Shown here piece by piece: positions 3,465 through 61,361 of a DNA stretch of 64,000 nt (position 1 is its first letter; every line of letters starts with the position of its first letter). The notes beneath the pieces were generated by a model. It did no database searches. It was given only the letters and a program-made list of their open reading frames with translations, and had not been told where the DNA came from. Source of the DNA: a virus. The stretch lies in the IMG/VR virus record IMGVR_UViG_3300021403_000005, one strand, 5' to 3'. Made by a program: the position numbers and the translations under genes.

Positions 3465-6400
3465 TGCACACCGTAGTATTTCTGAGCCAAGGCTCGAATG
3501 GTTTGATCGTCCCGTGTGTTCTTGCTGGCCTTCGCATAGTATTTCTTGAAGTCGACAGGCTGCATGTTCTCCAGCGTATTGATCTGGTCCGAGGCCGGAA
3601 GCCGCGAGAACATATACACCATCCCACCTCCAGGTTGGAGCTTTCGGATCGTTGCACTCTTTACACCTAAATCGGCCAGTTTCTTGGCCGCAGCAGAGGT
3701 AGCCGCTGTATCTTTGCGCTGCATGGCACCGAGATATTCGGTCCTCGCGTCGGCCCGTTGCTGAGCGTTCTCGGACTCGGCAAACGGCTTTTCTACCGGC
3801 GCCACATGGCGGCTATAGAGATTAACAATATGGTTCTCAATGTTTGAGCGACTTGCATAAGCAGGCGCCGGGCCAAAGCCAAGCATTGGCATATATACAT
3901 CGGGATCGGTGATCTGCTTCATAATGTCGGTTGGGCCATAAGGTTTACCGGACAGTTGCAAAGACCGCCTTGCTCCCACGATGGACATGGGATTCAGGTC
4001 CTCGTTGAGAATCGACTTGCCCATCTGCCAAGCGCGCTGAAACGCTGGCGCATTCTCATCATAAATCTGGTAGCCAAAGTAGTCGCGGTTAGCCAGCATC
4101 TCAGCAACCGGGGCGTACATCATCTTGTGATAGGCAGTTTGCAGCAATCCATACAGCGGGGATTGCTGATCCTCGATATTCTTCTCCACCATCGGGATTT
4201 CTCGGGTGTAGAATGGATTGGACATGCGACGCGGCGAGCCATCGGTATTCAGCCCACCCATGCGCGGAAAGATGTAGTCCATTGCCTCCTGTGGCCAATC
4301 ATCGCTGAATGCCTTGTTCAATAGCGCATTGGCAATCATCGAAGTCATCGCGTAGAAAAACAGATTCGTGGATTTGGTCGTGGTGTCGCGAATAAGCTGC
4401 CGTGTAGGCGTTGGCGCCGACATAAGACGCCGAGCGGCGGGTTCCAAAGCACCTCCGACAAACTCTCTGGCAAAGCCTAGATTCCAGCCCAGCGATAGAA
4501 AAGACCCAATCGCGGCATCTTTCAGCGTCCTATTCCAGAATAAGCTGCCATAGAACATCTCACCAAAGCGGTTGTCGATCTGCCTGCCTATGGCGCGTAA
4601 TGCGACCTGACGATTGGCTTGGTCATCCAGCAGGTCAGGGCGGCGCCGAAACAACGCAGCAGATTCCCTGGCCAAGGCAGCGGCCTTAAGATTGGGAATC
4701 CATTGCTCGAATATCCAACCCGTGAGTTTTTCAACGCCAAGCCGCATTCCCGGTAGAACCGATTTAAGATACTGATTATTGTTCCAGGCGTCGCTGAAGT
4801 CCCTCTTAGCCCTAATCCGCATCTGTTCCGATAGCTGAAGGCTCATGCCAGCTTCGTTGGCTATCTTGGTGATGCCTTTCTGGAGATTGTTTTGGTCATC
4901 GCCCGGCGTTTTCCAGGCTTCTTTCCAGGTTTTACCGACAAATGGCGTTCCAATCGGGAGAGCCATTGCTGTATCTGTAATCGACTGCGCAAGCGCCTCT
5001 GGTATGGCAGCAAATCGTCTGCCGATGCTTTGTTCACCTCGCCCAACTGCTTCATTCCAAGCCCTCGATAGGTTGTTGGATAGCGAAATACCCATGACGT
5101 GTATCGGATGGAACAAGCTCAAGCCAAGCTTGATCGGTACCCACGCATTCTTAAGGCTCATCCATTTCTGGAACAGTGTTCCAGGCAAGCCCTCGTTGGC
5201 CCATAGCCCCTTGGCCACGACAGCATTTTCCCACATTGGTTGGGCATCGGGGGCAATCATCCAGGACTTGCCATTCGGCGCCACGATCTCTTGCCACGGA
5301 TGCGGATCATTGCGCATCGGATTCATAATCGGCCCCGGCGCATTATCCTTCGGCACCGCTACGCCTTGCGAATAAAGCTCGCGCAGGAGGTTTGTTTTGT
5401 TCACCATGTCAGCGCTAGACATAAGGCGCATAGTGACGAGTTCTTCAGGATTGTTGGACTTAAGCTCCAGCCCGCGATCCAAGCCTTTCTGGATCAAATC
5501 GTAGTAACGGCCTTTGCTGAACCAGTTAGACCCCATCACTTCCGGTGACGTGTCGGCGTAGTTCTTAAATACATTCCTGGCTACTACGGGGTCTTTCCAG
5601 ATGTGCGGAAAGTAATTGGTGATAAAGTCGTAAGGTGAACCTGCTGCGGCTTCGTTACGGTTGGCAATATCGAGGTATTTCTTGTAAGCTTCAGCCCGTT
5701 CCTGCATCCACGGGTACTTGTCGGTTAAATCCTGTGGCAGCTTGCCTTCTTCATAGCTGGTCATAAACCGTGTGGCATCTTCAGCGGGAACCTTATTCCA
5801 CCGATAGTAGGAATCCTCGGCGCGGCTAATGATGGCATCGCGCATCTGAGCGACGCCGGATTTGAACTTGGCAAAGATCGGGTCAATCTGGAGTGCCTTG
5901 TCGCTGGTCAACTCCGGCATGAAGTTCTGCGTCCAGCTTTTGGCCACCACTCCTTTCGCTGTCACATCAGGCGGCAGATTGGCCAACCAGCTTTCATGCA
6001 GCGCCGCATCCCGAATATCGTTGGCTTGCTTGAAGAGATCGTTGCGCTGATCGACTATGGATTTAGCCGCCGCTTGACCTTGCGGTGTGGATTGATCGGG
6101 CAACACCATCGCATGGGCTTGCTGCTCAAGCGTTTCGGCCTGTTGGCTAGCAGCTTGCAGCTTGGCTTGGGCAGCTTGTTGTGGTGGAGTGAGTTCCCGG
6201 CCTGACGTATCGGCACGCGGCCCTCCTAAGCCCCCTGCTATAAGTCCATGCGCCAGTGCCGGGACTATCGTGCCCACGCTGCCCTGGGCATAGGCTTGCT
6301 GGAGACTGTCCGTAACCGGCTTACCCTGCACCATGTTGCGGGTAGCCTGCTCGGCTACCGAAATCGGGGCTTGGACACCAAGGGCTTGGAACACGAGATT

Positions 6401-39295: not shown

Positions 39296-40924
39296 TCAGA
39301 AGGGATAGAGGGCGGCTGTTGCCGATGGAGAACTATAAGCTAGTTCGTCCGCAGAAGCCATTGACTGTTCCTCACGGCGCAAAGCAAAACCCGACTCTCG
39401 CAAGTAACGAAGCGCTTGCGATGTGGAATCCACCAAGTCGTCCCGCGCACCTTTCGGGAAAAGCGCACACTGATCTATGACCATATCGGCCCAACTCTTG
39501 TCCGGGGCGTAGATCATCTCATCGGCAAAGAGATGCTGGATGGCGTGGACCCTGGCCACCTTGTCGCCGTACTTGGTGGGGTCCAGAAGTTCCACCCCCA
39601 GCTTGCCAGTGCCACGTAGCAATCGGTGAAGTTCATGCCCAATCGAGAGGCCGCTGGCCTTTGATTCCACCAAGAGCCTATCGACCGGGAATCTGGCCTC
39701 AACCGTGGTCACCGTACTGATCGTGCATGTCTGTATAACCTTTTGAACTAACTCGTAAAATTGCAACCGTTCCTGCCAAGCATAGATCAGCATAACCTTG
39801 GGATTCCCGGCCACATCGCGAAACACCCCCCAGATGGTCAGGGCTGAGGCGTCGTTTTCCTGCTTGATGGTGTAGGCGGTATCCAGGGAGGCGAGGATGT
39901 ACTCGAATCCAGGGTACTTCCCCTTTTCCCACATCTGCCAGAAATGGCGCTTAATAATTGAGCCACCACGCGGTTCCGGGGTCTGCTGGTACTGTCCGGC
40001 CCAGGCGTGAGGCCCTTTGTCGCGCTCCAGGCCCTTGCAGATTTCCTGGGTGAATCGCTCGGGCCAAGCTAGCTCGTAATCCGTAATTCGAGGGTCCTCC
40101 CAGAATACATCCTTGTCTTGCACATCTTTCACATCATCCCCAACAAATGTCTTAATACTACCATCAGGCGCATAGGCATTAACATACACCTTGGGAATGT
40201 ACTCCATGGGAATCCAGAGGTGGGTGTAGCCCATCTCCCGGCTGAGTGCGATTCCGCTAACATCGTCCTCGTGGGTGCGCTGCTGGATGACAGCGATGAT
40301 GCTCTCTTGGGGATTGTTCAGGCGGTCGGGCATGATTTCTGTAAACCACATCTTGGTGGTTTCTCGAACTAGCTCCGATTCCACATCAAATGGGTTATTC
40401 GGGTCGTCAATGATGATAATGTCGGCCCGTTCCCCCGTACCGATGCCGCCGACCGAGGTAGCCAGCTTCCAGCCGGTCTTGTCGTTAGCGAACTTGATCT
40501 TGGTGAATTGCTCATTGGAAATACCAAAGCGGTTGCCCCACATGCGCCTGTAGCGCTCGCTCACCACGATATTGCGGCAACGCATATTATCGCGTTCCGT
40601 CAAATGGTTAGAGTAGGCGGCGCACATGAATCGCGTCCACGGCTTGTTCTGCGGCCCCCATATCCAGGCAGGCCAGAACACGTCAGTCAGCAGCGACTTG
40701 GTAAAACCCGGCGGCACATTAATAAGGAGGCGCTTGATGTGCCCCTCGGACGCTGCCTGAAGGTGATCGGCAATGGCTTCAATGGCCCAGCCCCGAATAA
40801 ATGGGATCGCTGGCTCAACCACCGGCCACACGTACTCGGCAAAGTCGATGAGGCTACCTTCATACTTGCGATTGACCAGAAGCTTGTCGATTTGCCGGTA
40901 GGCGGTCTTGACCAGTTCGCTCAT
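39296..40924 (-). CDS. terL: Terminase large subunit
   Basis: LLINVPPGFTKS (Walker A region), IIIIDD (Walker B), YILASLDTA, VESKASG, GARDDLVDSTSQAL (RNase H-like nuclease). Confidence 0.95.
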   Translation of the reverse strand: MSELVKTAYRQIDKLLVNRKYEGSLIDFAEYVWPVVEPAIPFIRGWAIEAIADHLQAASEGHIKRLLINVPPGFTKSLLTDVFWPAWIWGPQNKPWTRFMCAAYSNHLTERDNMRCRNIVVSERYRRMWGNRFGISNEQFTKIKFANDKTGWKLATSVGGIGTGERADIIIIDDPNNPFDVESELVRETTKMWFTEIMPDRLNNPQESIIAVIQQRTHEDDVSGIALSREMGYTHLWIPMEYIPKVYVNAYAPDGSIKTFVGDDVKDVQDKDVFWEDPRITDYELAWPERFTQEICKGLERDKGPHAWAGQYQQTPEPRGGSIIKRHFWQMWEKGKYPGFEYILASLDTAYTIKQENDASALTIWGVFRDVAGNPKVMLIYAWQERLQFYELVQKVIQTCTISTVTTVEARFPVDRLLVESKASGLSIGHELHRLLRGTGKLGVELLDPTKYGDKVARVHAIQHLFADEMIYAPDKSWADMVIDQCALFPKGARDDLVDSTSQALRYLRESGFALRREEQSMASADELAYSSPSATAALYPF

Positions 40925-40994
40925 TAAAAATCCAGCGGTGGAAAACTCGACAACAATGATTGTCGCTTTCCGGGGCAGCTTATACCGAATCACA

Positions 40995-41351
40995 ATGGAA
41001 GAGAATGCTAAGACCTCACACACCGTCATCTACAATCGGCTTTGGAATATCCAACCGGGCGAACAGATTATCTATTTCGTGGGATTCTTGGATGCCGAAC
41101 GCGATCCGCAACCTTCAGAGAGTCCGCTCAATAAGATCGCCAATCTCGCCTACCAGCTTATGCTGGAAGGTCGCGTGAGGCTTACGCAGCGACGCATCAT
41201 GGCGCCAGTCGTTCATGGCGGCATGGTCGATTGGCATCGTGGGGTCGGACAGGGCTTTGAATATATCGCTACGGGGACCACACCCAGGAAAGAAGCGATG
41301 AAAGTACCCGAAAGAACTCTCTACAACCCCCTCAGCAAGGTACTCAAATGA
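40995..41351 (+). CDS. Phage hypothetical protein, first gene of the plus-strand block
   Basis: PGEQIIYFVGFL...ANLAYQL..EGRVRLTQRR...FEYIA; ATGA coupling to the next gene. Confidence 0.6.
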   Translation: MEENAKTSHTVIYNRLWNIQPGEQIIYFVGFLDAERDPQPSESPLNKIANLAYQLMLEGRVRLTQRRIMAPVVHGGMVDWHRGVGQGFEYIATGTTPRKEAMKVPERTLYNPLSKVLK

Positions 41352-49215: not shown

Positions 49216-49544
49216 AAATCGCAATAAAAAAACGCAACCAAAGGATCAAGCCCGCACAAAAGAAGGCAAGCGACGACAAGGTTGCCAAGTACATTGTTAA
49301 GCTTCTAAGTAGAATCGAAAGTCTTGAAAAGGAATTAGGGCAATGCAAAGAGCAGCTTAATCAAAACTGGTATCACCGAGAGAAAAGAGAACAGCGGTTA
49401 GCAAAACTTTTGACTCCAGACCAAAAAGAAGCTGCCAGAATATCTGGCATTTCTCAGTATGAATATGCCGTGCGGTTTATGGAAATTCAATACGCCAAGA
49501 CTGCCACCAATATATTAACGGGTAATCTTGATGATGATCGCTAA
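49212..49544 (+). CDS. Coiled-coil hypothetical protein
   Basis: ATGA overlap; LTPDQKEAARISGISQYEYA resembles the C-terminus of the scaffold protein. Confidence 0.6.
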   Translation: MKIAIKKRNQRIKPAQKKASDDKVAKYIVKLLSRIESLEKELGQCKEQLNQNWYHREKREQRLAKLLTPDQKEAARISGISQYEYAVRFMEIQYAKTATNILTGNLDDDR

Positions 49545-50535
49545 GACCGAGATCGCTCAGTGTGCCTTCCCTTATATTGTTTGTGAAATATCAGGCAATC
49601 ACGGTGGTAGCCTAGAACGCGCCAAACAGCTTATCAAAGAAGCCAAGAAAGCTGGAGCGGCTGCGGTCAAGACGCAATGCTACAACGCTGATACATTGAC
49701 GTTGAACTGCAACAAGCTGGACTTCATCGTACAGGGCGGTCTATGGCAGGGCAAGACGCTATACGAACTTTATCAATCCGCTTGTACTCCACCGGAATGG
49801 CACAAGGAGCTATACAGTGTCGCCCATGACGAAGGCATTACGATCTTTTCTTCGGTGTTCGACCGCAGTGGGATCGACCTACTCCAATCTCTCGGCTGTC
49901 CGGCATATAAGATTGCGAGCTTTGAAGTGGCCGACCTACATCTTATCGAGTACGCAGCTAAGACAGATAAACCAATCATCATCTCGACGGGCCTCGCCAA
50001 CAACCAAGAAATAAGAGAAGCGCGCGAGGCGGCTGGTCCCAACTCCGCGTTCCTGCATTGCACCAGCGAGTATCCAGCCGATACCGACAATGCCGATATG
50101 TGGCGCGTCCATAGGATATACGAACTGCTCCACAAAGAGTGCCCTGTAGGGCTGTCCGATCATAGCAGCGGGCATCTGTTGCCGATCATGGCGACCGCGA
50201 TGGGGGCGGCGATCATTGAGAAGCACCTCAAACTGCGATTGGCGCCCCCAAGCGAGGACGATGCGTTTAGCCTGACACCGGCCGAGTTTGCGGGCATGGT
50301 CACGGCCGTCAAGCAAGCCTGGAGCGCGGGGCTGGAGCATGAGCAGCCTGCGAATCCATCACGGCAATTCCGCAGAAGCCTTTATGTTATCGAGGACATA
50401 CGAGAAGGCGAGCAGTTCACCGAACTGAACATACGCTCGATCCGGCCGGGCTTTGGAATGCCGCCGAAGAACTATTCCAAGATGCTGGGGAAAAGAGCCA
50501 AAAAAGATTATAAGCGCGGCGACCCCTTATGGTAG
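49531..50535 (+). CDS. pseI: NeuB-family nonulosonate synthase with SAF domain, PseI
   Basis: EISGNHGGS, VKTQCY..DT, LYELY, IFSSVFD, YKIASFE, IIISTG, LHCTSEYP, VGLSDHS, IIEKH, FRRSLY, RSIRPGFG. Confidence 0.9.
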   Translation: MMIAKTEIAQCAFPYIVCEISGNHGGSLERAKQLIKEAKKAGAAAVKTQCYNADTLTLNCNKLDFIVQGGLWQGKTLYELYQSACTPPEWHKELYSVAHDEGITIFSSVFDRSGIDLLQSLGCPAYKIASFEVADLHLIEYAAKTDKPIIISTGLANNQEIREAREAAGPNSAFLHCTSEYPADTDNADMWRVHRIYELLHKECPVGLSDHSSGHLLPIMATAMGAAIIEKHLKLRLAPPSEDDAFSLTPAEFAGMVTAVKQAWSAGLEHEQPANPSRQFRRSLYVIEDIREGEQFTELNIRSIRPGFGMPPKNYSKMLGKRAKKDYKRGDPLW

Positions 50536-50542
50536 GGAAGCA

Positions 50543-50638
50543 CGTGGGCGAGTGAAACGGATACCCGGTCAGTGACCGGGGGATCATTTCAGTCTCATAA
50601 ACTGAAGATAGTGGGTTCGACTCCCATGCCCGCAACCA
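50543..50638 (+). tRNA. tRNA with CAT anticodon (Met or Ile2), encoded CCA, and a 17-nt hairpin inserted in the D-loop
   Basis: Acceptor CGTGGGC/GCCCGCA, discriminator A, CCA; D-stem GTGA/TCAT; anticodon arm TCAGT-CTCATAA-ACTGA; T-arm GTGGG-TTCGACT-CCCAT; 96 nt total. Confidence 0.8.
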
Positions 50639-50656: not shown

Positions 50657-50923
50657 ATGAGTTACCAAGGCCAGACAGCAGAGAGAAATCCTACGCCTGC
50701 CAGCCTTACAGAAGGCGGTGTGAACATGAACTCTCGCCTTCGCGAGATTCGTGATCGCATTAGCAAGATTGCCGATAACATCCACGGAATGAGCCTCAAA
50801 GCTGCCGGTGAGGGAAAAGCAGAAGCGCCACCGACAAATAGCTTACGTCGCAATCTCGATGTAGGATTCAACTACATCGACCAGATTGAAGCTGAACTCC
50901 ATCGGCTTGAACTCAACCTCTAA
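50657..50923 (+). CDS. Small hypothetical protein
   Basis: AGGAG RBS before ATG 50657 (an alternative start at 50726 is possible). Confidence 0.5.
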   Translation: MSYQGQTAERNPTPASLTEGGVNMNSRLREIRDRISKIADNIHGMSLKAAGEGKAEAPPTNSLRRNLDVGFNYIDQIEAELHRLELNL

Positions 50924-51131: not shown

Positions 51132-51908
51132 ATGGCTAAGGCCAAAAACGGACGAACACTGGTTACCTTCCTTCTGGATCGCACTGGTTCAATGGAATCG
51201 GTCAAGAAGGCTACGATTGAAGGTTTCAACGGCTATGTTGAAACGCTTCAGAAAGAGAAAGCAGCCGATATCGAGTTCACGCTCATTACCTTCGACACCC
51301 AGAGCATGGACAAGATTTGCGTCTGCAAGCCAATCAAAGGCGCTCCGAAGCTGGACGAGAAGAACTATCAGCCTCGTTCAGGCACCAACTTGATCGACTG
51401 TGCCTACGACACCATCAAGGCGGTTGAAGGCCAGGAGAAGGCCAAGGGCGCCAAGATTGTGATCTGCTTCCAGACCGATGGTGAGGAGAATTCCTCGCAC
51501 AAGCATACATCTGAGGAGCTTAAGACCCTGATCGAGGAAAAGACCAAGCTGGGTTGGCAGTTCAACTTCATGGGCTGCGGAATCGACGCCTATGCTCAAT
51601 CGGCTCGGATGGGAATGACCTACGCCCAGACCACATCCTATAGCCCGGATGCAGCATCGACAGATGCTTCCTTCCGTGCCAACGCCATGAATACCTCTCT
51701 TTATGCCGCAGGAGCCAGAGACAATACCTCCTATACCAACGTGCAAAGAGCGGCTTCTGGTGATAAGTTCTATCATTACCAGAATGGTCTTGTTGGCAAT
51801 TTTGGCCTTACCGGGACTCCCGTTAAAGGTCCAATTCCAACACAGGGGCCGCTAGACCTAAATGACGCCAGCAAGCCAAAAGATTCGTCTCTCGACCTCA
51901 ATGGCTAA
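51132..51908 (+). CDS. vWA-domain protein
   Basis: MIDAS residues LLDRTGSM, T.LIDC, QTDGEENSS; WQFNFMG. Confidence 0.88.
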   Translation: MAKAKNGRTLVTFLLDRTGSMESVKKATIEGFNGYVETLQKEKAADIEFTLITFDTQSMDKICVCKPIKGAPKLDEKNYQPRSGTNLIDCAYDTIKAVEGQEKAKGAKIVICFQTDGEENSSHKHTSEELKTLIEEKTKLGWQFNFMGCGIDAYAQSARMGMTYAQTTSYSPDAASTDASFRANAMNTSLYAAGARDNTSYTNVQRAASGDKFYHYQNGLVGNFGLTGTPVKGPIPTQGPLDLNDASKPKDSSLDLNG

Positions 51909-59885: not shown

Positions 59886-61361
59886 ATGGCTGAACCGAAA
59901 GTTAACTGGGACAAGCTGGATGTTGGTATTCAGCACGAAGGCCGCGCTATTACGCTGCCCGGTGATCCCGGCAATATGCCGCTTGAGAAAGCGGTGGAGG
60001 CTCTCCAGCGCAAGATCGCTGACGAGAATCAAGCGTTCCAGATTCACGAAATCATCGAGGGTTATCCATTGGATGCTGCGGTGGCTTTCGTGAAGGCTAT
60101 GGCCAAACTCTATGGCTGGGCGTCGCCGGTTGCTACGCCAAGCTTCTTTGGTCCTCGGCCGCCACAGATGATTTCGGTCAAGACCGGGCCGAATGACGAG
60201 GATGTGATCCAGTGCCCTCTCGGTGGCTTTAGGATTCCCGGCGTCGATCAGATGATTCATACTCTGATTGATCGGGGACCAAAAGGCAAGCTGATCTTCA
60301 TCGTCCGCGCTGAGATCAAAAAGAAAGATCGCCATATCCTACTTGAACTCGCCAACGAAGCTCGGCGTTTCGTTCGTGAGGAAAGCATCTACAAGGGTAA
60401 GGCGATTCGGCTGAGTGTCGATGACTGTGGCGATATTGACTTCGGCAACCCGCCGAGCTTCTTGGCTGGACTGGAGGATACCACGGAAGCCTCGCTGATC
60501 TTCGATGCTGAGATTCAGGCTCAGATCGACACCAGCGTACTGGTTCCGCTCAAGTATCCCGAAGAGTGCAGAAAGAACAAGGTGCCGTTTAAGCGCGGTA
60601 TCTTGCTCGAAGGCCCCTATGGCACCGGCAAATCGTTGACGGCCCGCATGGTAGCCAATGTGGCACAGCAGAACGGTGTGACGTTTGTGCTGCTCGATAA
60701 GGTCCAGGGCCTTCAGGCTGGACTGGAGTTCGCGATTCAATACTCCCCGGCGGTCGTGTTTGCCGAGGATATCGACCGGGTGGCCTCCGAGCGTAACGAA
60801 GCGACCAACGATCTCATCAATATCATTGATGGTGTCGTGAGCAAGACCGCCAAGGTCATGACGATCCTGACGACCAATTTCGTAGAAAAGCTCAATCCGG
60901 TAATTCTGCGGCCCGGTCGTTTGGATGCAGTGATTTCACTGCGAGCGCCGACACAAGACGCCGTGGAGAAACTGCTGCGAATGTATGCCGGTAAGTTGTT
61001 GGTGTCCGATACCGATATAAAGGCGGCCTCCAAGGAACTCGCCGGTCAAATTCCTGCCTCAATTCGCGAATGTGTTGAGCGGGCAAAGTTGGGCATGATT
61101 GGACGTGAGGACACGAAATTGTCCGATAGCGATCTGGTCACAGCGGCCAAGACGATGAAGAATCATTTGGCCCTGCTCAATAAGGATAACAAGAAGCAGA
61201 GCAATGCCGAGAAACTTGCTGAGAGCCTCCATGCGGTTGTCAGCAATGATCACGGCAACGACGAGAAGCTTGATGGAATCGAAGGACTGATTCGCCAGAA
61301 TGCATCGCTATGCGATGATATGGACGATGACGTGAAGCGGATCAAGCGCAGCGTTTGCTAA
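59886..61361 (+). CDS. AAA+ ATPase (classic clade) with an N-terminal extension
   Basis: Walker A GPYGTGKS, Walker B VFAEDID, sensor TTN, second region of homology ILRPGRLD. Confidence 0.92.
   Translation: MAEPKVNWDKLDVGIQHEGRAITLPGDPGNMPLEKAVEALQRKIADENQAFQIHEIIEGYPLDAAVAFVKAMAKLYGWASPVATPSFFGPRPPQMISVKTGPNDEDVIQCPLGGFRIPGVDQMIHTLIDRGPKGKLIFIVRAEIKKKDRHILLELANEARRFVREESIYKGKAIRLSVDDCGDIDFGNPPSFLAGLEDTTEASLIFDAEIQAQIDTSVLVPLKYPEECRKNKVPFKRGILLEGPYGTGKSLTARMVANVAQQNGVTFVLLDKVQGLQAGLEFAIQYSPAVVFAEDIDRVASERNEATNDLINIIDGVVSKTAKVMTILTTNFVEKLNPVILRPGRLDAVISLRAPTQDAVEKLLRMYAGKLLVSDTDIKAASKELAGQIPASIRECVERAKLGMIGREDTKLSDSDLVTAAKTMKNHLALLNKDNKKQSNAEKLAESLHAVVSNDHGNDEKLDGIEGLIRQNASLCDDMDDDVKRIKRSVC

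What the first reader, a model, noticed from the sequence alone, without database searches (positions are those of the whole stretch)
50543..50638. tRNA-CAT with a perfect hairpin inserted in the D-loop and mixed identity elements
Seen: all four arms and CCA are intact, but the D-loop is 28 nt: AACGGATA, then CCCGGTC-AGT-GACCGGG (50564-80), then GGA. It has a C1:A72 mismatch (initiator-like) but lacks the three G-C anticodon-stem pairs of initiators, has T11:A24, and G at position 8. Established: bacterial tRNA extra arms normally occur in the variable region, and phage tRNAs can counter host anticodon nucleases or tRNA depletion. Inference: a fifth-arm tRNA that may evade nucleases, act as a decoy, be processed, or be decaying. 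Its length may cause scanners to miss it.
Basis: partly seen in the sequence, partly recalled or inferred. Interest (0 to 1): 0.62.

Follow-up and report, generated by a model that had tools for sequence, protein, structure and literature searches.

The report
Phage start-type tRNA with fifth arm
A soil phage's only tRNA gene is a real, selected methionine-anticodon tRNA resembling the bacterial start (initiator) tRNA, with an extra hairpin in its D-loop. It belongs to a widespread phage tRNA family with stretchable D-loops that standard tRNA finders mostly miss.

Summary
Window 50543-50638 (+) is a complete cloverleaf with anticodon CAT, encoded CCA and a 28-nt D-loop holding a perfect 7-bp hairpin (50564-80). 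ARAGORN and Rfam's tRNA model find no tRNA in the whole ~75-kb phage. ARAGORN calls tRNA-Met once the hairpin is deleted.

It is not decaying. A homologue in a related phage (L099, 88% identical, 4 nt from a normal tRNA-Ser) keeps every stem, and two hairpin pairs change on both sides. Two more variants with the insert lie in other metagenome contigs.

The gene belongs to a large phage tRNA(CAU) family, GA-GTGA-AACGGATA-[insert]-A-TCAY, with 53 unique sequences from 82 IMG/VR loci; cultured Salmonella and E. coli phages carry members too. Inserts are 1-2 nt, 6-8 nt, or 20-26 nt. The five long inserts all fold as hairpins of unrelated sequence, in at least four lineages.

Outside the D arm the tRNA is closest to initiator tRNA-fMet: 42/60 identical, against 29/60 for elongator Met and for Ile2.

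Best reading: a working, initiator-derived phage tRNA with a retained fifth arm. Whether the arm stays in the mature RNA, and what it does, is untested. Earlier scan notes describe related oddities, not this one.

The parts
50543..50638 (+). Whole tRNA(CAU) gene, 96 nt, with encoded CCA
   Evidence: Sequence. ARAGORN calls tRNA-Met after the hairpin is removed. Covariance model R1 scores it 115 bits and finds homologues.
50543..50549 (+). Acceptor stem 5' strand CGTGGGC (C1 unpaired with A72; G2:C71, U3.G70, G4:C69)
   Evidence: In L099 position 3 is C (C3:G70) and position 1 is A, so the 1:72 mismatch is kept as A.A.
50550..50551 (+). G8 A9 connector (G8 instead of the usual U8)
   Evidence: GA occurs at this place in 45 of 53 family members.
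50552..50555 (+). D stem 5' strand GTGA
   Evidence: Pairs with 50584-87 and is invariant with it in L099. D-stem cells pair in 100% of 52 family members.
50556..50563 (+). D-loop 5' part AACGGATA (carries the GG expected to meet the T loop)
   Evidence: Identical in L099, L104 and 82 IMG/VR loci, although the search pattern required it.
50564..50580 (+). Extra hairpin (fifth arm): 7 bp CCCGGTC/GACCGGG with loop AGT
   Evidence: Folds at -12.8 kcal/mol. L099 keeps 6 of the pairs, with U-A to G-C and G-C to C-G double changes. Read variants 50576 C>T and 50577 C>T give G.U pairs. The sequence is unique in the window.
50581..50583 (+). D-loop 3' part GGA; the final A is the likely A21
   Evidence: An A precedes the D-stem 3' strand TCAY (Y = C or T) in nearly all family members of every insert class.
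50584..50587 (+). D stem 3' strand TCAT
50589..50605 (+). Anticodon arm TCAGT-CTCATAA-ACTGA; anticodon CAT at 50596-98, with U33 and A37
   Evidence: L099 has A29:U41 changed to G:C and U31:A39 changed to U.G. A read variant with 50589 T>C plus 50605 A>G is compensatory.
50611..50627 (+). T arm GTGGG-TTCGACT-CCCAT
   Evidence: G49.U65 becomes G:C in L099.
50628..50638 (+). Acceptor 3' strand GCCCGCA, discriminator A73, encoded CCA
   Evidence: Identical in L099.
49528..50535 (+). Upstream gene: NeuB-type synthase, last gene of the pseudaminic-acid operon; its stop codon ends 7 nt before the tRNA
   Evidence: Pfam NeuB 2.9e-66. No promoter-like or terminator-like site between it and the tRNA.
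50657..50923 (+). Downstream 88-aa ORF; its AGGAG ribosome-binding site starts 8 nt after the tRNA
   Evidence: It is a called gene in the JGI contig.
51132..51908 (+). 258-aa gene (relatives labelled YegL/VWA) that lies near unusual tRNA(CAU) genes in relatives
   Evidence: phrog_7371 and homologues. Its homologues sit beside the L099 hairpin tRNA, the L208/L209 tRNA and the L001 tRNA array.

Best explanation
Window 50543-50638 is a genuine tRNA gene kept by selection, and the only tRNA gene of this ~75-kb soil phage. It belongs to a widespread phage tRNA(CAU) family that looks derived from the bacterial initiator tRNA-fMet. In this family the segment of the D-loop between G19 and A21 can grow.

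Shown here:
- The cloverleaf and the extra hairpin are conserved through compensatory changes.
- The anticodon CAU, U33, A37, A73 and CCA are kept.
- The insert sits at one fixed site, after AACGGATA and before A-TCAY.
- Inserts at that site come in three size classes. The longest class always folds as a hairpin, although the insert sequences are unrelated.

Inferred:
- The gene is transcribed with the operon around it and cut out by RNase P and 3' processing enzymes.
- The hairpin stays in the mature RNA as a fifth arm projecting from the elbow side of the D-loop.
- The tRNA is charged with methionine by the host MetRS, which reads CAU and A73.
- It is probably formylated, because the 1x72 mismatch, G2:C71, (C/U)3:G70 and A73 are the formyltransferase determinants.
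- It then serves in translation initiation. The bulky arm would be tolerable there, because an initiator enters the P site directly and never passes through EF-Tu and the A site.

Most speculative: the arm, like the shorter A/U-rich expansions, makes the phage's tRNA sterically different from the host's. It could be a shield against a host tRNA-targeting defence, or a handle for a partner.
For: Real gene:
- ARAGORN calls tRNA-Met once 50564-80 is removed.

Conservation with the insert:
- L099:1699-1795 is 88% identical. It lies 4 nt upstream of a canonical tRNA-Ser.
- 26 of 26 stem pairs hold in both sequences. Three pairs change on both sides, two of them in the hairpin.
- Two further low-depth contigs, from a soil and a lake metagenome, align gap-free across the insert with other flanks. 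They show G.U-type changes in the hairpin and a compensatory change in the anticodon stem.

Family:
- A pattern scan gave 82 IMG/VR loci with 53 unique CAT tRNAs.
- 97% of stem cells pair and 20 of 26 pairs carry double changes. No shuffle out of 500 reached these values.
- Members fill tRNA-sized gaps in phage tRNA arrays.

Insert classes:
- Among the 53 unique sequences, 19 have 1-2 nt, 29 have 6-8 nt and 5 have 20-26 nt.
- All five long inserts fold as hairpins that start at the first or second inserted base.
- Outside the insert, the nearest relatives of the long-insert genes are short-loop members, apart from the window/L099 pair. So the long inserts lie in at least four lineages.

Initiator affinity:
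- 42 of 60 positions outside the D arm match E. coli metZ, against 29 of 60 for metT and for ileY. For L099 the figures are 43, 27 and 29.
- In the family, G30:C40 occurs in 50 of 53 members and at least two of the three G-C pairs in 41 of 53.
- Position 1:72 is a mismatch or weak pair in all but one parse. A73 occurs in 44 of 53.
- The L131 array holds an Ile2-like tRNA, an elongator-Met-like tRNA and a family member with all three G-C pairs.

Operon context:
- No promoter-like or terminator-like site adjoins the gene.
Against: - No expression, charging or size data exist.
- Two initiator hallmarks fail in the window gene. Only one of three G-C pairs is present (A29:U41, G30:C40, U31:A39). 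It has U11:A24 instead of A11:U24.
- G8 replaces U8.
- In one array (L149) a canonical-looking initiator-like tRNA coexists with a family member, so the family's role may not be uniform.
- The phage's closest relative found (L085, whose neighbouring protein is 80% identical) lacks the gene at the syntenic site, so it is dispensable.
- RNAfold's minimum-energy fold of the 96-mer is not the cloverleaf. It extends the D-arm hairpin into the anticodon stem.
- Compensation in the hairpin rests on two full sequences plus partial read evidence. It would equally be expected if the hairpin were a splicing signal.
- The family alignment was fitted to the model, which favours pairing.
Confidence: 0.55

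Rival explanations
1. The 20-nt insert is a mini-intron. The primary transcript carries the hairpin, an unknown endonuclease and ligase remove it, and the mature tRNA has a normal 8-9-nt D-loop.
For: - Removing the insert leaves AACGGATA(A)-TCAT, which is exactly the D arm of the 1-nt class of the family.
- The phages with the other long D-loop inserts also carry tRNAs with 28-nt and 78-nt inserts in the anticodon loop. Those tRNAs could not decode unless spliced.
- An earlier scan note (e1-5402340, unchecked) reports a 21-nt hairpin insert at position 34/35 of a phage initiator tRNA.
- Conserved hairpin pairing would also be expected of a splicing signal.
Against: - There is no bulge-helix-bulge geometry: the hairpin lies wholly inside the insert and has no flanking 3-nt bulges.
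- The insert is far too short for a group I or group II intron.
- No RtcB or tRNA-splicing endonuclease gene is present in the three IMG/VR records with long inserts, one of which is complete.
- None shows among the precomputed Pfam hits of the window phage's non-structural genes.
- The 6-8-nt A/U-rich class shows a graded, unstructured expansion at the same site. That looks like loop growth, not intron gain.
- The D-loop segment after G19 is the part of a tRNA known to vary in length (established knowledge).
Confidence: 0.15
2. It is a tRNA-shaped RNA that no longer decodes. It could be an RNase P / 3'-processing punctuation mark that splits the operon transcript. It could be a decoy for a host tRNA-targeting enzyme, or a Y-RNA-like scaffold.
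For: - It is the phage's only tRNA.
- It sits 7 nt after the NeuB stop codon and 18 nt before the next start codon, with no promoter-like or terminator-like site of its own.
- G8, U11:A24 and the weak anticodon stem depart from both initiator and elongator rules.
- Earlier scan notes (e1-5534378, e1-5566419, unchecked) describe tRNA-shaped Y RNAs with side arms in viruses.
Against: - The anticodon CAU, U33 and A37 are kept between the window and L099, while the flanking loop positions 32 and 38 change.
- CAT occurs in 53 of 55 unique pattern matches. A punctuation mark or scaffold has no need of that.
- No YrlA or Y RNA match appears in the window at E up to 5.
- The 7-bp hairpin is much smaller than a Ro-binding helix.
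- Most family members sit inside ordinary tRNA arrays.
Confidence: 0.12
3. It is a working tRNA with the arm retained, but it is an elongator tRNA-Met or a lysidine-modified tRNA-Ile2 that supplies AUG or AUA decoding, not an initiator.
For: - U11:A24 is elongator-like and only one of the three G-C pairs is present.
- Phages often carry tRNA-Ile(CAU) (general knowledge).
- In L149 a canonical initiator-like tRNA coexists with a family member.
- PVP-SE1 has only two CAT tRNAs, the family member and an elongator-like one.
Against: - A 1x72 mismatch (C.A here, A.A in L099) impairs EF-Tu binding in the known cases (established knowledge).
- Similarity outside the D arm is clearly highest to the initiator: 42 of 60 against 29 of 60.
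- Arrays such as L131, L129, L149 and L195 already hold a separate Ile2-like tRNA (GGNCC...GGNCC-ACCA) beside the family member.
- A bulky D-loop arm would have to pass through the A/T and A sites.
Confidence: 0.13
4. It is a decaying pseudogene, or an assembly artefact, hit by a chance palindromic insertion.
For: Scanners reject it. The closest relative found lacks it at the same site.
Against: - The sequence is identical in a JGI contig and in two Logan assemblies, though these may include the source sample.
- Divergent copies with the insert occur in other contexts.
- All stem differences from L099 preserve pairing.
- Unrelated hairpins sit at the same site in three other lineages.
- The hairpin is not a repeated element in the window.
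Confidence: 0.04

Closest known systems
Bacterial initiator tRNA-fMet (E. coli metZ/W/V, NC_000913.3 2947387-2947463)
   Same: - Anticodon CAU and loop CUCAUAA.
- C1xA72 mismatch, G2:C71, G4:C69 to G6:C67, A73 and CCA.
- Acceptor 3' strand (G/C)CCCGCA-ACCA.
- U27:A43, C28:G42 and G30:C40.
- 42 of 60 positions outside the D arm are identical.
   Different: - Only one of the three consecutive G-C pairs is present.
- U11:A24 replaces A11:U24.
- G8 A9 replaces U8 G9.
- The D arm is quite different, with a 28-nt loop holding a hairpin.
- The T loop is TTCGACT, not TTCAAAT.
tRNA-Met gt001 of Salmonella phage PVP-SE1 (NC_016071.1 62894-62975) and its copies in Seunavirus and other large cultured phages (4MG, GAP31, Hena1, Mydo)
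   Same: - Same family: GTGA-AACGGATA-[insert]-A-TCAY D arm, CAT anticodon and GGTTCGACTCC T arm. R1 scores are 67-72 bits.
- These copies are also mis-annotated or unannotated: tRNA-Ala, tRNA-OTHER or nothing.
   Different: - Their insert is 6 nt and unstructured (TATAGA), giving a 14-nt D-loop.
- They have U1-A72, U8 and discriminator U73.
- They have three consecutive G/C pairs in the anticodon stem.
- They sit in arrays of about 24 tRNAs, whereas the window gene is the phage's only tRNA.
Class II tRNAs (Leu, Ser, Tyr, Sec) with a long variable arm
   Same: They are tRNAs with a fifth helical arm that is kept in the mature molecule and tolerated by the ribosome.
   Different: Their arm leaves from the variable region (positions 44-48), not from the D-loop, and it serves as a synthetase identity element. 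No class II tRNA reads AUG.
tRNA-Sec D arm (6-bp stem, 4-nt loop; review PMC7609411)
   Same: It is a remodelled, longer helical D arm that works as a recognition feature (for SelA or PSTK) in a tRNA that still functions. The related phage contig G001 has a CAT tRNA with a 6-bp, 3-nt-loop D arm.
   Different: In the window gene the normal 4-bp D stem and a GG-containing loop are kept, and the helix is added inside the loop. The acceptor and T stems have the ordinary 7/5 layout.
Archaeal tRNA genes with non-canonical introns in the D-loop (bulge-helix-bulge, EndA; e.g. PMC3241643)
   Same: It is a short structured insert in the D-loop region of a tRNA gene, and removing it restores a canonical tRNA.
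   Different: There is no bulge-helix-bulge motif. The setting is bacterial and phage, with no EndA or RtcB found in related phage records. A graded series of unstructured 6-8-nt inserts occupies the same site.
Phage tRNAs proposed to escape host tRNA nucleases through sequence changes (van den Berg et al. 2023, PMC10264068)
   Same: It is a phage-encoded copy of a tRNA that host toxins are known to target. VapC cleaves initiator tRNA (Winther and Gerdes 2011, cited there). The copy differs from cellular versions.
   Different: That work concerns anticodon-loop point changes, and it reports that phages mostly avoid encoding tRNA-fMet. Here the difference is a structural addition in the D-loop, and no nuclease is identified.

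Membership tests
tRNA (canonical cloverleaf) | 7-bp acceptor stem, 5-bp anticodon stem with a 7-nt loop (U33, purine 37), 5-bp T stem with a TTCRA loop, discriminator base and CCA | tested here: met
   Sequence; ARAGORN after insert removal; pair counts.
tRNA (canonical cloverleaf) | D arm of 3-4 bp with a 7-11-nt loop, and recognition by general tRNA models | tested here: not met
   The D-loop is 28 nt with an internal 7-bp hairpin. ARAGORN finds 0 genes. RF00005 gives no hit at gathering or at E up to 5.
Bacterial initiator tRNA-fMet | Mismatch at 1:72 (C1xA72) with G2:C71, C3:G70 and A73, the formyltransferase determinants | tested here: met
   The window has C1xA72, G2:C71, U3.G70 (wobble) and A73. 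L099 has A1xA72, G2:C71, C3:G70 and A73.
Bacterial initiator tRNA-fMet | Three consecutive G-C pairs, 29:41, 30:40 and 31:39 | tested here: not met
   The window has A:U, G:C, U:A and L099 has G:C, G:C, U.G. In the family, all three are present in 9 of 53 members, at least two in 41 of 53, and G30:C40 in 50 of 53.
Bacterial initiator tRNA-fMet | A11:U24 in the D stem | tested here: not met
   U11:A24 occurs in the window, in L099 and in 51 of 52 aligned family members.
Bacterial initiator tRNA-fMet | Formylation, IF2/IF3-dependent P-site binding and exclusion from EF-Tu | not testable with these tools
   This needs biochemistry.
tRNA-Ile2 (lysidine, anticodon CAU) | TilS recognition and lysidine at position 34, with charging by IleRS | not testable with these tools
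   Indirect evidence only: 29 of 60 identity to E. coli ileY against 42 of 60 to metZ. Separate Ile2-like genes coexist with family members in arrays.
Phage AACGGATA-type tRNA(CAU) family (defined here) | G/U8-A9, D stem GTGA/TCAY, D-loop beginning AACGGATA, an insert of variable length ending in A, anticodon CAT, T arm NNNGG-TTCGACT-CCNNN | tested here: met
   Every feature is present. R1, built from the window and L099, scores 50 other members at 46-77 bits.
Protein-spliced (bulge-helix-bulge) tRNA intron | Two 3-nt bulges flanking a 4-bp helix at the exon-intron junctions, and a splicing endonuclease plus ligase in the system | tested here: not met
   The sequence has no such motif. PF01974 and PF01139 are absent from G045-G047. 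The window phage was covered only through precomputed Pfam hits of its non-structural genes, and the host is unknown.
YrlA / Y RNA (tRNA-like module plus Ro-binding helix) | Match to the Rfam Y RNA/YrlA models, a long bulged helix replacing the anticodon arm, and a nearby Ro60/Rsr gene | tested here: not met
   No such Rfam hit in the window at E up to 5. The anticodon arm is intact. No TROVE-domain gene appears among the Pfam hits seen, but that check was not exhaustive.
Class II tRNA | The extra arm emerges from the variable region between the anticodon and T arms | tested here: not met
   The variable region is 5 nt (AGATA, 50606-10) and the arm lies in the D-loop.

The most novel reading that the evidence does not exclude
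Phages have repeatedly turned the D-loop of an initiator-derived tRNA into a docking or shielding arm. The mature tRNA would keep a fifth helix at the elbow and still start translation. It would be invisible or resistant to a host system that targets the cellular initiator tRNA, or be used preferentially by the phage. This would be a natural five-armed bacterial-type tRNA, and a phage-private initiation channel that annotation pipelines miss.
Probability: 0.2. Interest if true: 0.9.

Novelty: new variant of a known kind. Interest (0 to 1): 0.72.

Why it matters
- Bacterial-type tRNAs are taken to be uniformly canonical. [quoted passage not shown]
- A conserved helix inside the D-loop, arising in several phage lineages, would extend the known range of tRNA shapes.
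- It would show how much bulk the initiation pathway tolerates at the tRNA elbow, where RNase P, IF3 and ribosomal elements make contact.
- There is a practical annotation gap. None of the 49 IMG/VR family loci with a 14-16-nt D-loop was called tRNA-Met by ARAGORN.
- The four such members tested are also missed by Rfam's tRNA model.
- In GenBank, cultured-phage copies are labelled tRNA-Met, tRNA-Ala, tRNA-OTHER or nothing. Phage tRNA counts and codon-supply analyses are therefore biased.
- The question can be tested at the bench, because moderate-expansion members exist in cultured E. coli and Salmonella phages (4MG, PVP-SE1).

Tried and rejected
- Alternative register (fold B). It uses the second GTGA (50572-75) as the D stem, with a 20-nt insert between the acceptor and D arms flanked by an AGTGA direct repeat. 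Rfam's weak tRNA-Sec and Tymo hits suggested it. I rejected it because L099 has GTGC there and no repeat, while GTGA(10-13)/TCAT is invariant.
- attP or host tRNA fragment. Rejected: both acceptor strands are present, there is no adjacent integrase, and family members sit in phage tRNA arrays.
- Repeated palindromic element. Rejected: the hairpin is unique in the window.
- Terminator or promoter role. No T-run follows the hairpin and no consensus site lies next to it.
- Searches that found nothing:
  - blastn of the 2-kb region and of 13 kb of structural genes against GenBank phages.
  - Exact or degenerate 24-41-nt patterns in IMG/VR.
  - The same kind of patterns in JGI metagenome contigs. 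That collection evidently lacks even the source contig.
  - The D-loop pattern in 185,579 species genomes, which gave only three non-tRNA chance matches.
  - E. coli genomes.
- Neighbour-based searches that gave no tRNA homologue: relatives of the 258-aa protein, NeuB and the 88-aa ORF, and 77 terminase relatives; also L085, L100-L103 and L205-L207.
- No RNA holder was listed among public sequencing runs, so expression could not be assessed.
- The rest of the L085 contig (74 kb) could not be searched because it is not held.
- No RtcB or tRNA-splicing endonuclease was found in three long-insert phage records.
- Literature searches for D-loop hairpins or expanded D-loops in phage or bacterial tRNAs found no description.
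Full report
**1.

Window 50543-50638 (+) reads as follows:

C-GTGGGC / GA / GTGA / AACGGATA-[CCCGGTC-AGT-GACCGGG]-GGA / TCAT / T / TCAGT-CTCATAA-ACTGA / AGATA / GTGGG-TTCGACT-CCCAT / GCCCGC-A / A / CCA

All four arms, the anticodon CAT (50596-98), U33, A37, A73 and an encoded CCA are present. The D-loop is 28 nt and contains a perfect 7-bp hairpin with a 3-nt loop at 50564-80.

- ARAGORN finds no tRNA in the window.
- Rfam at its curated thresholds finds none.
- With permissive thresholds only sub-threshold tRNA-Sec (27.4 bits) and Tymo_tRNA-like (25 bits) matches appear. Both begin inside the insert.
- Deleting 50564-80, or slightly more, makes ARAGORN call tRNA-Met(cat).

**2. Setting**

The window is a phage. 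It has a large terminase at 39296-41029, a portal gene and structural genes on the minus strand. A pseudaminic-acid-type sugar operon on the plus strand ends with NeuB at 49528-50535.

The tRNA starts 8 nt after the NeuB stop codon. It ends 18 nt before an 88-aa ORF with a strong ribosome-binding site. No promoter-like or terminator-like site adjoins it, so it is probably made from the operon transcript and cut out.

I recovered the remaining ~11 kb of the ~75-kb genome from an identical JGI contig (L083, L095, L097, L098). Neither ARAGORN nor Rfam finds any other tRNA there. This is the phage's only tRNA-like gene.

A GcrA-like gene and two genes with a DnaA C-terminal domain in that part suggest an alphaproteobacterial host. 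That is an inference.

The 200 bases around the gene are identical in the JGI contig. They are also identical in two Logan soil assemblies. These may include the source sample.

**3. It is conserved, with the insert**

Homologues of the neighbouring 258-aa protein led to a Logan contig, L099. Its protein is 69% identical. L099:1699-1795 is 88% identical to the window gene across its whole length, insert included. It lies 4 nt upstream of a canonical tRNA-Ser(TGA).

All 26 stem pairs hold in both sequences:

| Element | Window | L099 |
|---|---|---|
| Hairpin, second pair from the loop | U-A | G-C |
| Hairpin, fourth pair from the loop | G-C | C-G |
| Anticodon stem 29:41 | A:U | G:C |
| Anticodon stem 31:39 | U:A | U.G |
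| T stem 49:65 | G.U | G:C |
| Acceptor 3:70 | U.G | C:G |

The 1:72 position stays unpaired (C.A in the window, A.A in L099). CAU, U33 and A37 stay, while loop positions 32 and 38 change.

Laying public contigs on the region showed two more variants that align gap-free across the insert with different flanks:
- A 294-nt soil contig with 12 differences. They include 50589 T>C with 50605 A>G, which is compensatory, and 50576 C>T, which gives G.U in the hairpin.
- A 191-nt lake-water contig with 6 differences. They include 50577 C>T, which also gives G.U.

These contigs have low depth and I could not read their full sequences.

An alternative register uses the second GTGA as the D stem.

**4. 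It belongs to a large phage family with an expandable D-loop**

A covariance model built from the two sequences (R1) and pattern scans recovered 82 IMG/VR loci. They hold 53 unique CAT tRNAs. All share G/U8-A9, GTGA, AACGGATA, an insert, A-TCAY and the T arm GGTTCGACTCC. The scan pattern itself required the D-loop and T-arm motifs, so the true family is probably wider.

Across 52 aligned members 97% of stem cells pair. Twenty of 26 pairs show changes on both sides. No shuffle out of 500 reached those values, and slid registers drop to 34-53% paired. The alignment is fitted to the model, which favours pairing.

Insert length after AACGGATA falls into three classes:

| Insert | Unique sequences | Character | ARAGORN |
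|---|---|---|---|
| 1-2 nt | 19 | Canonical D-loop | tRNA-Met at 21 of 27 loci |
| 6-8 nt | 29 | A/U-rich, e.g. TATAAA, TTTATAAA | Not called Met at any of 49 loci; 3 called tRNA-Ala(ggc) |
| 20-26 nt | 5 | Hairpin (window, L099, L128, L160, L162) | None called correctly |

Rfam's tRNA model at gathering threshold misses all seven expanded members I tested, although its hits on neighbouring tRNAs leave tRNA-sized gaps exactly there.

All five long inserts fold as a hairpin that starts at the first or second inserted base and is followed by 3-5 unpaired bases. Energies are -12.8, -11.3, -3.5, -6.9 and -5.7 kcal/mol, and z-scores run from -1.8 to -4.5.

The insert sequences of the window/L099 pair, L128, L160 and L162 are unrelated. 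Outside the insert, the nearest relatives of L128, L160 and L162 are short-loop members. Hairpin arms at this one site therefore occur in at least four lineages.

Other D-arm remodelling occurs in the same phage group:
- Contig G001 (terminase 64% identical) has, within an array of about 27 tRNAs, a CAT tRNA whose D arm is a 6-bp stem with a 3-nt loop.
- L208/L209 carry an 82-nt tRNA with an initiator-like acceptor stem and a 24-nt D region, right after the homologue of the 258-aa protein.
- Both are missed by ARAGORN, and the G001 gene is also missed by RF00005.

**5. Which tRNA is it?**

I took E. coli reference genes from the annotated MG1655 record. Outside the D arm, the window gene matches the initiator metZ at 42 of 60 positions. 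It matches the elongator metT and the Ile2 gene ileY at 29 of 60 each. For L099 the figures are 43, 27 and 29.

The acceptor stem carries the known determinants for formylation: the 1x72 mismatch, G2:C71, (C/U)3:G70 and A73. That these are the determinants is established knowledge, not tested here.

Family-wide:
- G30:C40 is present in 50 of 53 members.
- At least two of the three G-C pairs are present in 41 of 53.
- 1:72 is a mismatch or a weak pair in all but one parse.
- A73 is present in 44 of 53.

In the L131 array an Ile2-like gene, an elongator-Met-like gene and a family member with all three G-C pairs coexist. That assigns the family member to the initiator slot.

Counter-evidence:
- The window gene has only one of the three G-C pairs.
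- The family has U11:A24, not A11:U24.
- Most members have G8.
- L149 has both a canonical-looking initiator-like gene and a family member.

I therefore call the family initiator-derived. An initiator function is likely but unproven.

Other phages also carry initiator-like tRNAs with a C1xA72 mismatch and a relaxed anticodon stem. Examples are the jumbo-phage contig G002 and Stenotrophomonas phage Philippe.

**6. Cultured phages carry the moderate form**

Blast of a 6-nt-class member against GenBank phages hit 79 records. Among them are the Seunavirus phages PVP-SE1 and 4MG and other phages of roughly 120-150 kb, such as GAP31, KB57, Hena1 and Mydo. Lactobacillus and Vibrio phages were also hit; the listing also names Enterococcus and Bacillus phages, which I did not inspect.

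In the copies I inspected or saw listed, annotation is inconsistent. The gene is tRNA-Met in PVP-SE1 (82 nt, gt001). It is unannotated in 4MG, tRNA-Ala in Hena1 and Mydo, and tRNA-OTHER in Lactobacillus phage 521B.

**7. How it most likely works**

Shown: it is a tRNA gene under structural selection, with a conserved helix inserted between the GG-bearing part of the D-loop and A21.

Inferred:
- It is co-transcribed with the operon and released by RNase P and 3' processing.
- It is charged by MetRS, which reads CAU and A73.
- It is probably formylated and used at initiation.
- The arm stays. The site is the length-variable pocket of the D-loop, the family shows a graded unstructured expansion there, and an initiator avoids EF-Tu and the A site. 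The tolerance argument is my own inference.
- What the arm is for remains open: a steric shield against a host tRNA-targeting system, a handle for a partner, or a tolerated expansion kept folded so that it does no harm. A phage-tRNA escape hypothesis exists for anticodon-loop changes (PMC10264068).

**8. Rivals**

- A mini-intron removed by an unknown mechanism is the most serious rival. Excision would restore the family's canonical D arm. The other long-insert phages also carry tRNAs with 28-nt and 78-nt inserts in the anticodon loop. An earlier scan note reports a 21-nt hairpin insert inside a phage initiator anticodon (unchecked). Against it: no bulge-helix-bulge motif, no RtcB or EndA in three long-insert records, and the graded short inserts at the same site.
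- A non-decoding tRNA-like RNA (punctuation mark, decoy or Y-RNA-like scaffold) is disfavoured. The anticodon is conserved, there is no Y RNA match, and most members sit in ordinary tRNA arrays.
- Decay or an assembly artefact is essentially excluded.

**9. Novelty**

My literature searches found no description of tRNAs with a helix in the D-loop, or of this phage family. A review of natural non-canonical tRNAs lists none (PMC7609411).

Earlier notes of this scan report related phage oddities: extra variable arms, a mini-intron, and tRNA-shaped Y RNAs. None reports this D-loop arm or this family. I rate it a new variant of a known kind. It is interesting because it recurs, is selected, is systematically unannotated, and can be tested in cultured E. 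coli and Salmonella phages.

Noticed in passing
L094:3004-3079 (-), = IMG/VR 3300043406_000028 positions 69503-69578: In a related 76-kb phage with an array of about 27 tRNAs, a CAT tRNA has a D arm that is a 6-bp stem with a 3-nt loop (CTGGAG-TGG-CTCCAG). ARAGORN and RF00005 both miss it.
   Followed up: partly
L208:2973-3054 and L209:1198-1279: An 82-nt tRNA(CAT) with an initiator-like acceptor (CGCGGGA...TCCCGCA-ACCA, C1xA72, U8 G9, T loop TTCAAAT) has a 24-nt D region. It lies directly after the homologue of the window's 258-aa protein. ARAGORN misses it.
   Followed up: partly
window 51132-51908; L099:395-1105; L001:4001-4624; L208:2170-2958: The 258-aa gene (relatives labelled YegL/VWA), usually followed by a small HTH gene, repeatedly lies within about 1 kb of tRNA genes. 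These are the hairpin tRNA, the L208 tRNA and a 14-tRNA array. In other relatives (L085, L100, L101) it does not. This could be shared genome layout or a functional link.
   Followed up: no
These are the same phages that carry long D-loop hairpins. The inserts are far too short for group I introns.
   Followed up: partly
L164:4134-4218 (-): A second CAT tRNA with C1xA72 has a long variable arm and sits in the same array as a family member that also has C1xA72.
   Followed up: no
L104:5235-5318 (-) and L106:11736-11819 (-): This family member has an 8-nt insert and an unusual anticodon loop, AUCAUCC, with C at position 37 instead of a purine.
   Followed up: no
GenBank phages: KF550303.1 ~60176-60257 (4MG); MN732867.1 57671-57744 (Hena1); MK504443.1 62544-62603 (521B): The same tRNA family is unannotated, annotated tRNA-Ala, or annotated tRNA-OTHER in different cultured-phage records. 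In PVP-SE1 it is tRNA-Met.
   Followed up: partly
L085:2451-2816 and L099:1328-1711: A 121-127-aa protein with an N-terminal RRGFLxGLA motif (Tat-signal-like) replaces the tRNA and the 88-aa ORF after NeuB in the relative whose 258-aa-protein homologue is 80% identical (L085). In L099 its stop codon lies inside the 5' part of the hairpin tRNA.
   Followed up: no
L098:1130-1594, 1812-2198 and 3467-3850 (rest of the phage genome, outside the window): A GcrA-like gene and two genes with a DnaA C-terminal domain, which hints at an alphaproteobacterial host.
   Followed up: no
L112:1501-1577 (278-kb IMG/VR contig) and MZ326861.1 19183-19258 (Stenotrophomonas phage Philippe): These are canonical-shaped phage tRNAs with the initiator acceptor stem (C1xA72) but with only one or two of the three anticodon-stem G-C pairs. 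A relaxed anticodon stem seems common in phage initiator-like tRNAs.
   Followed up: partly
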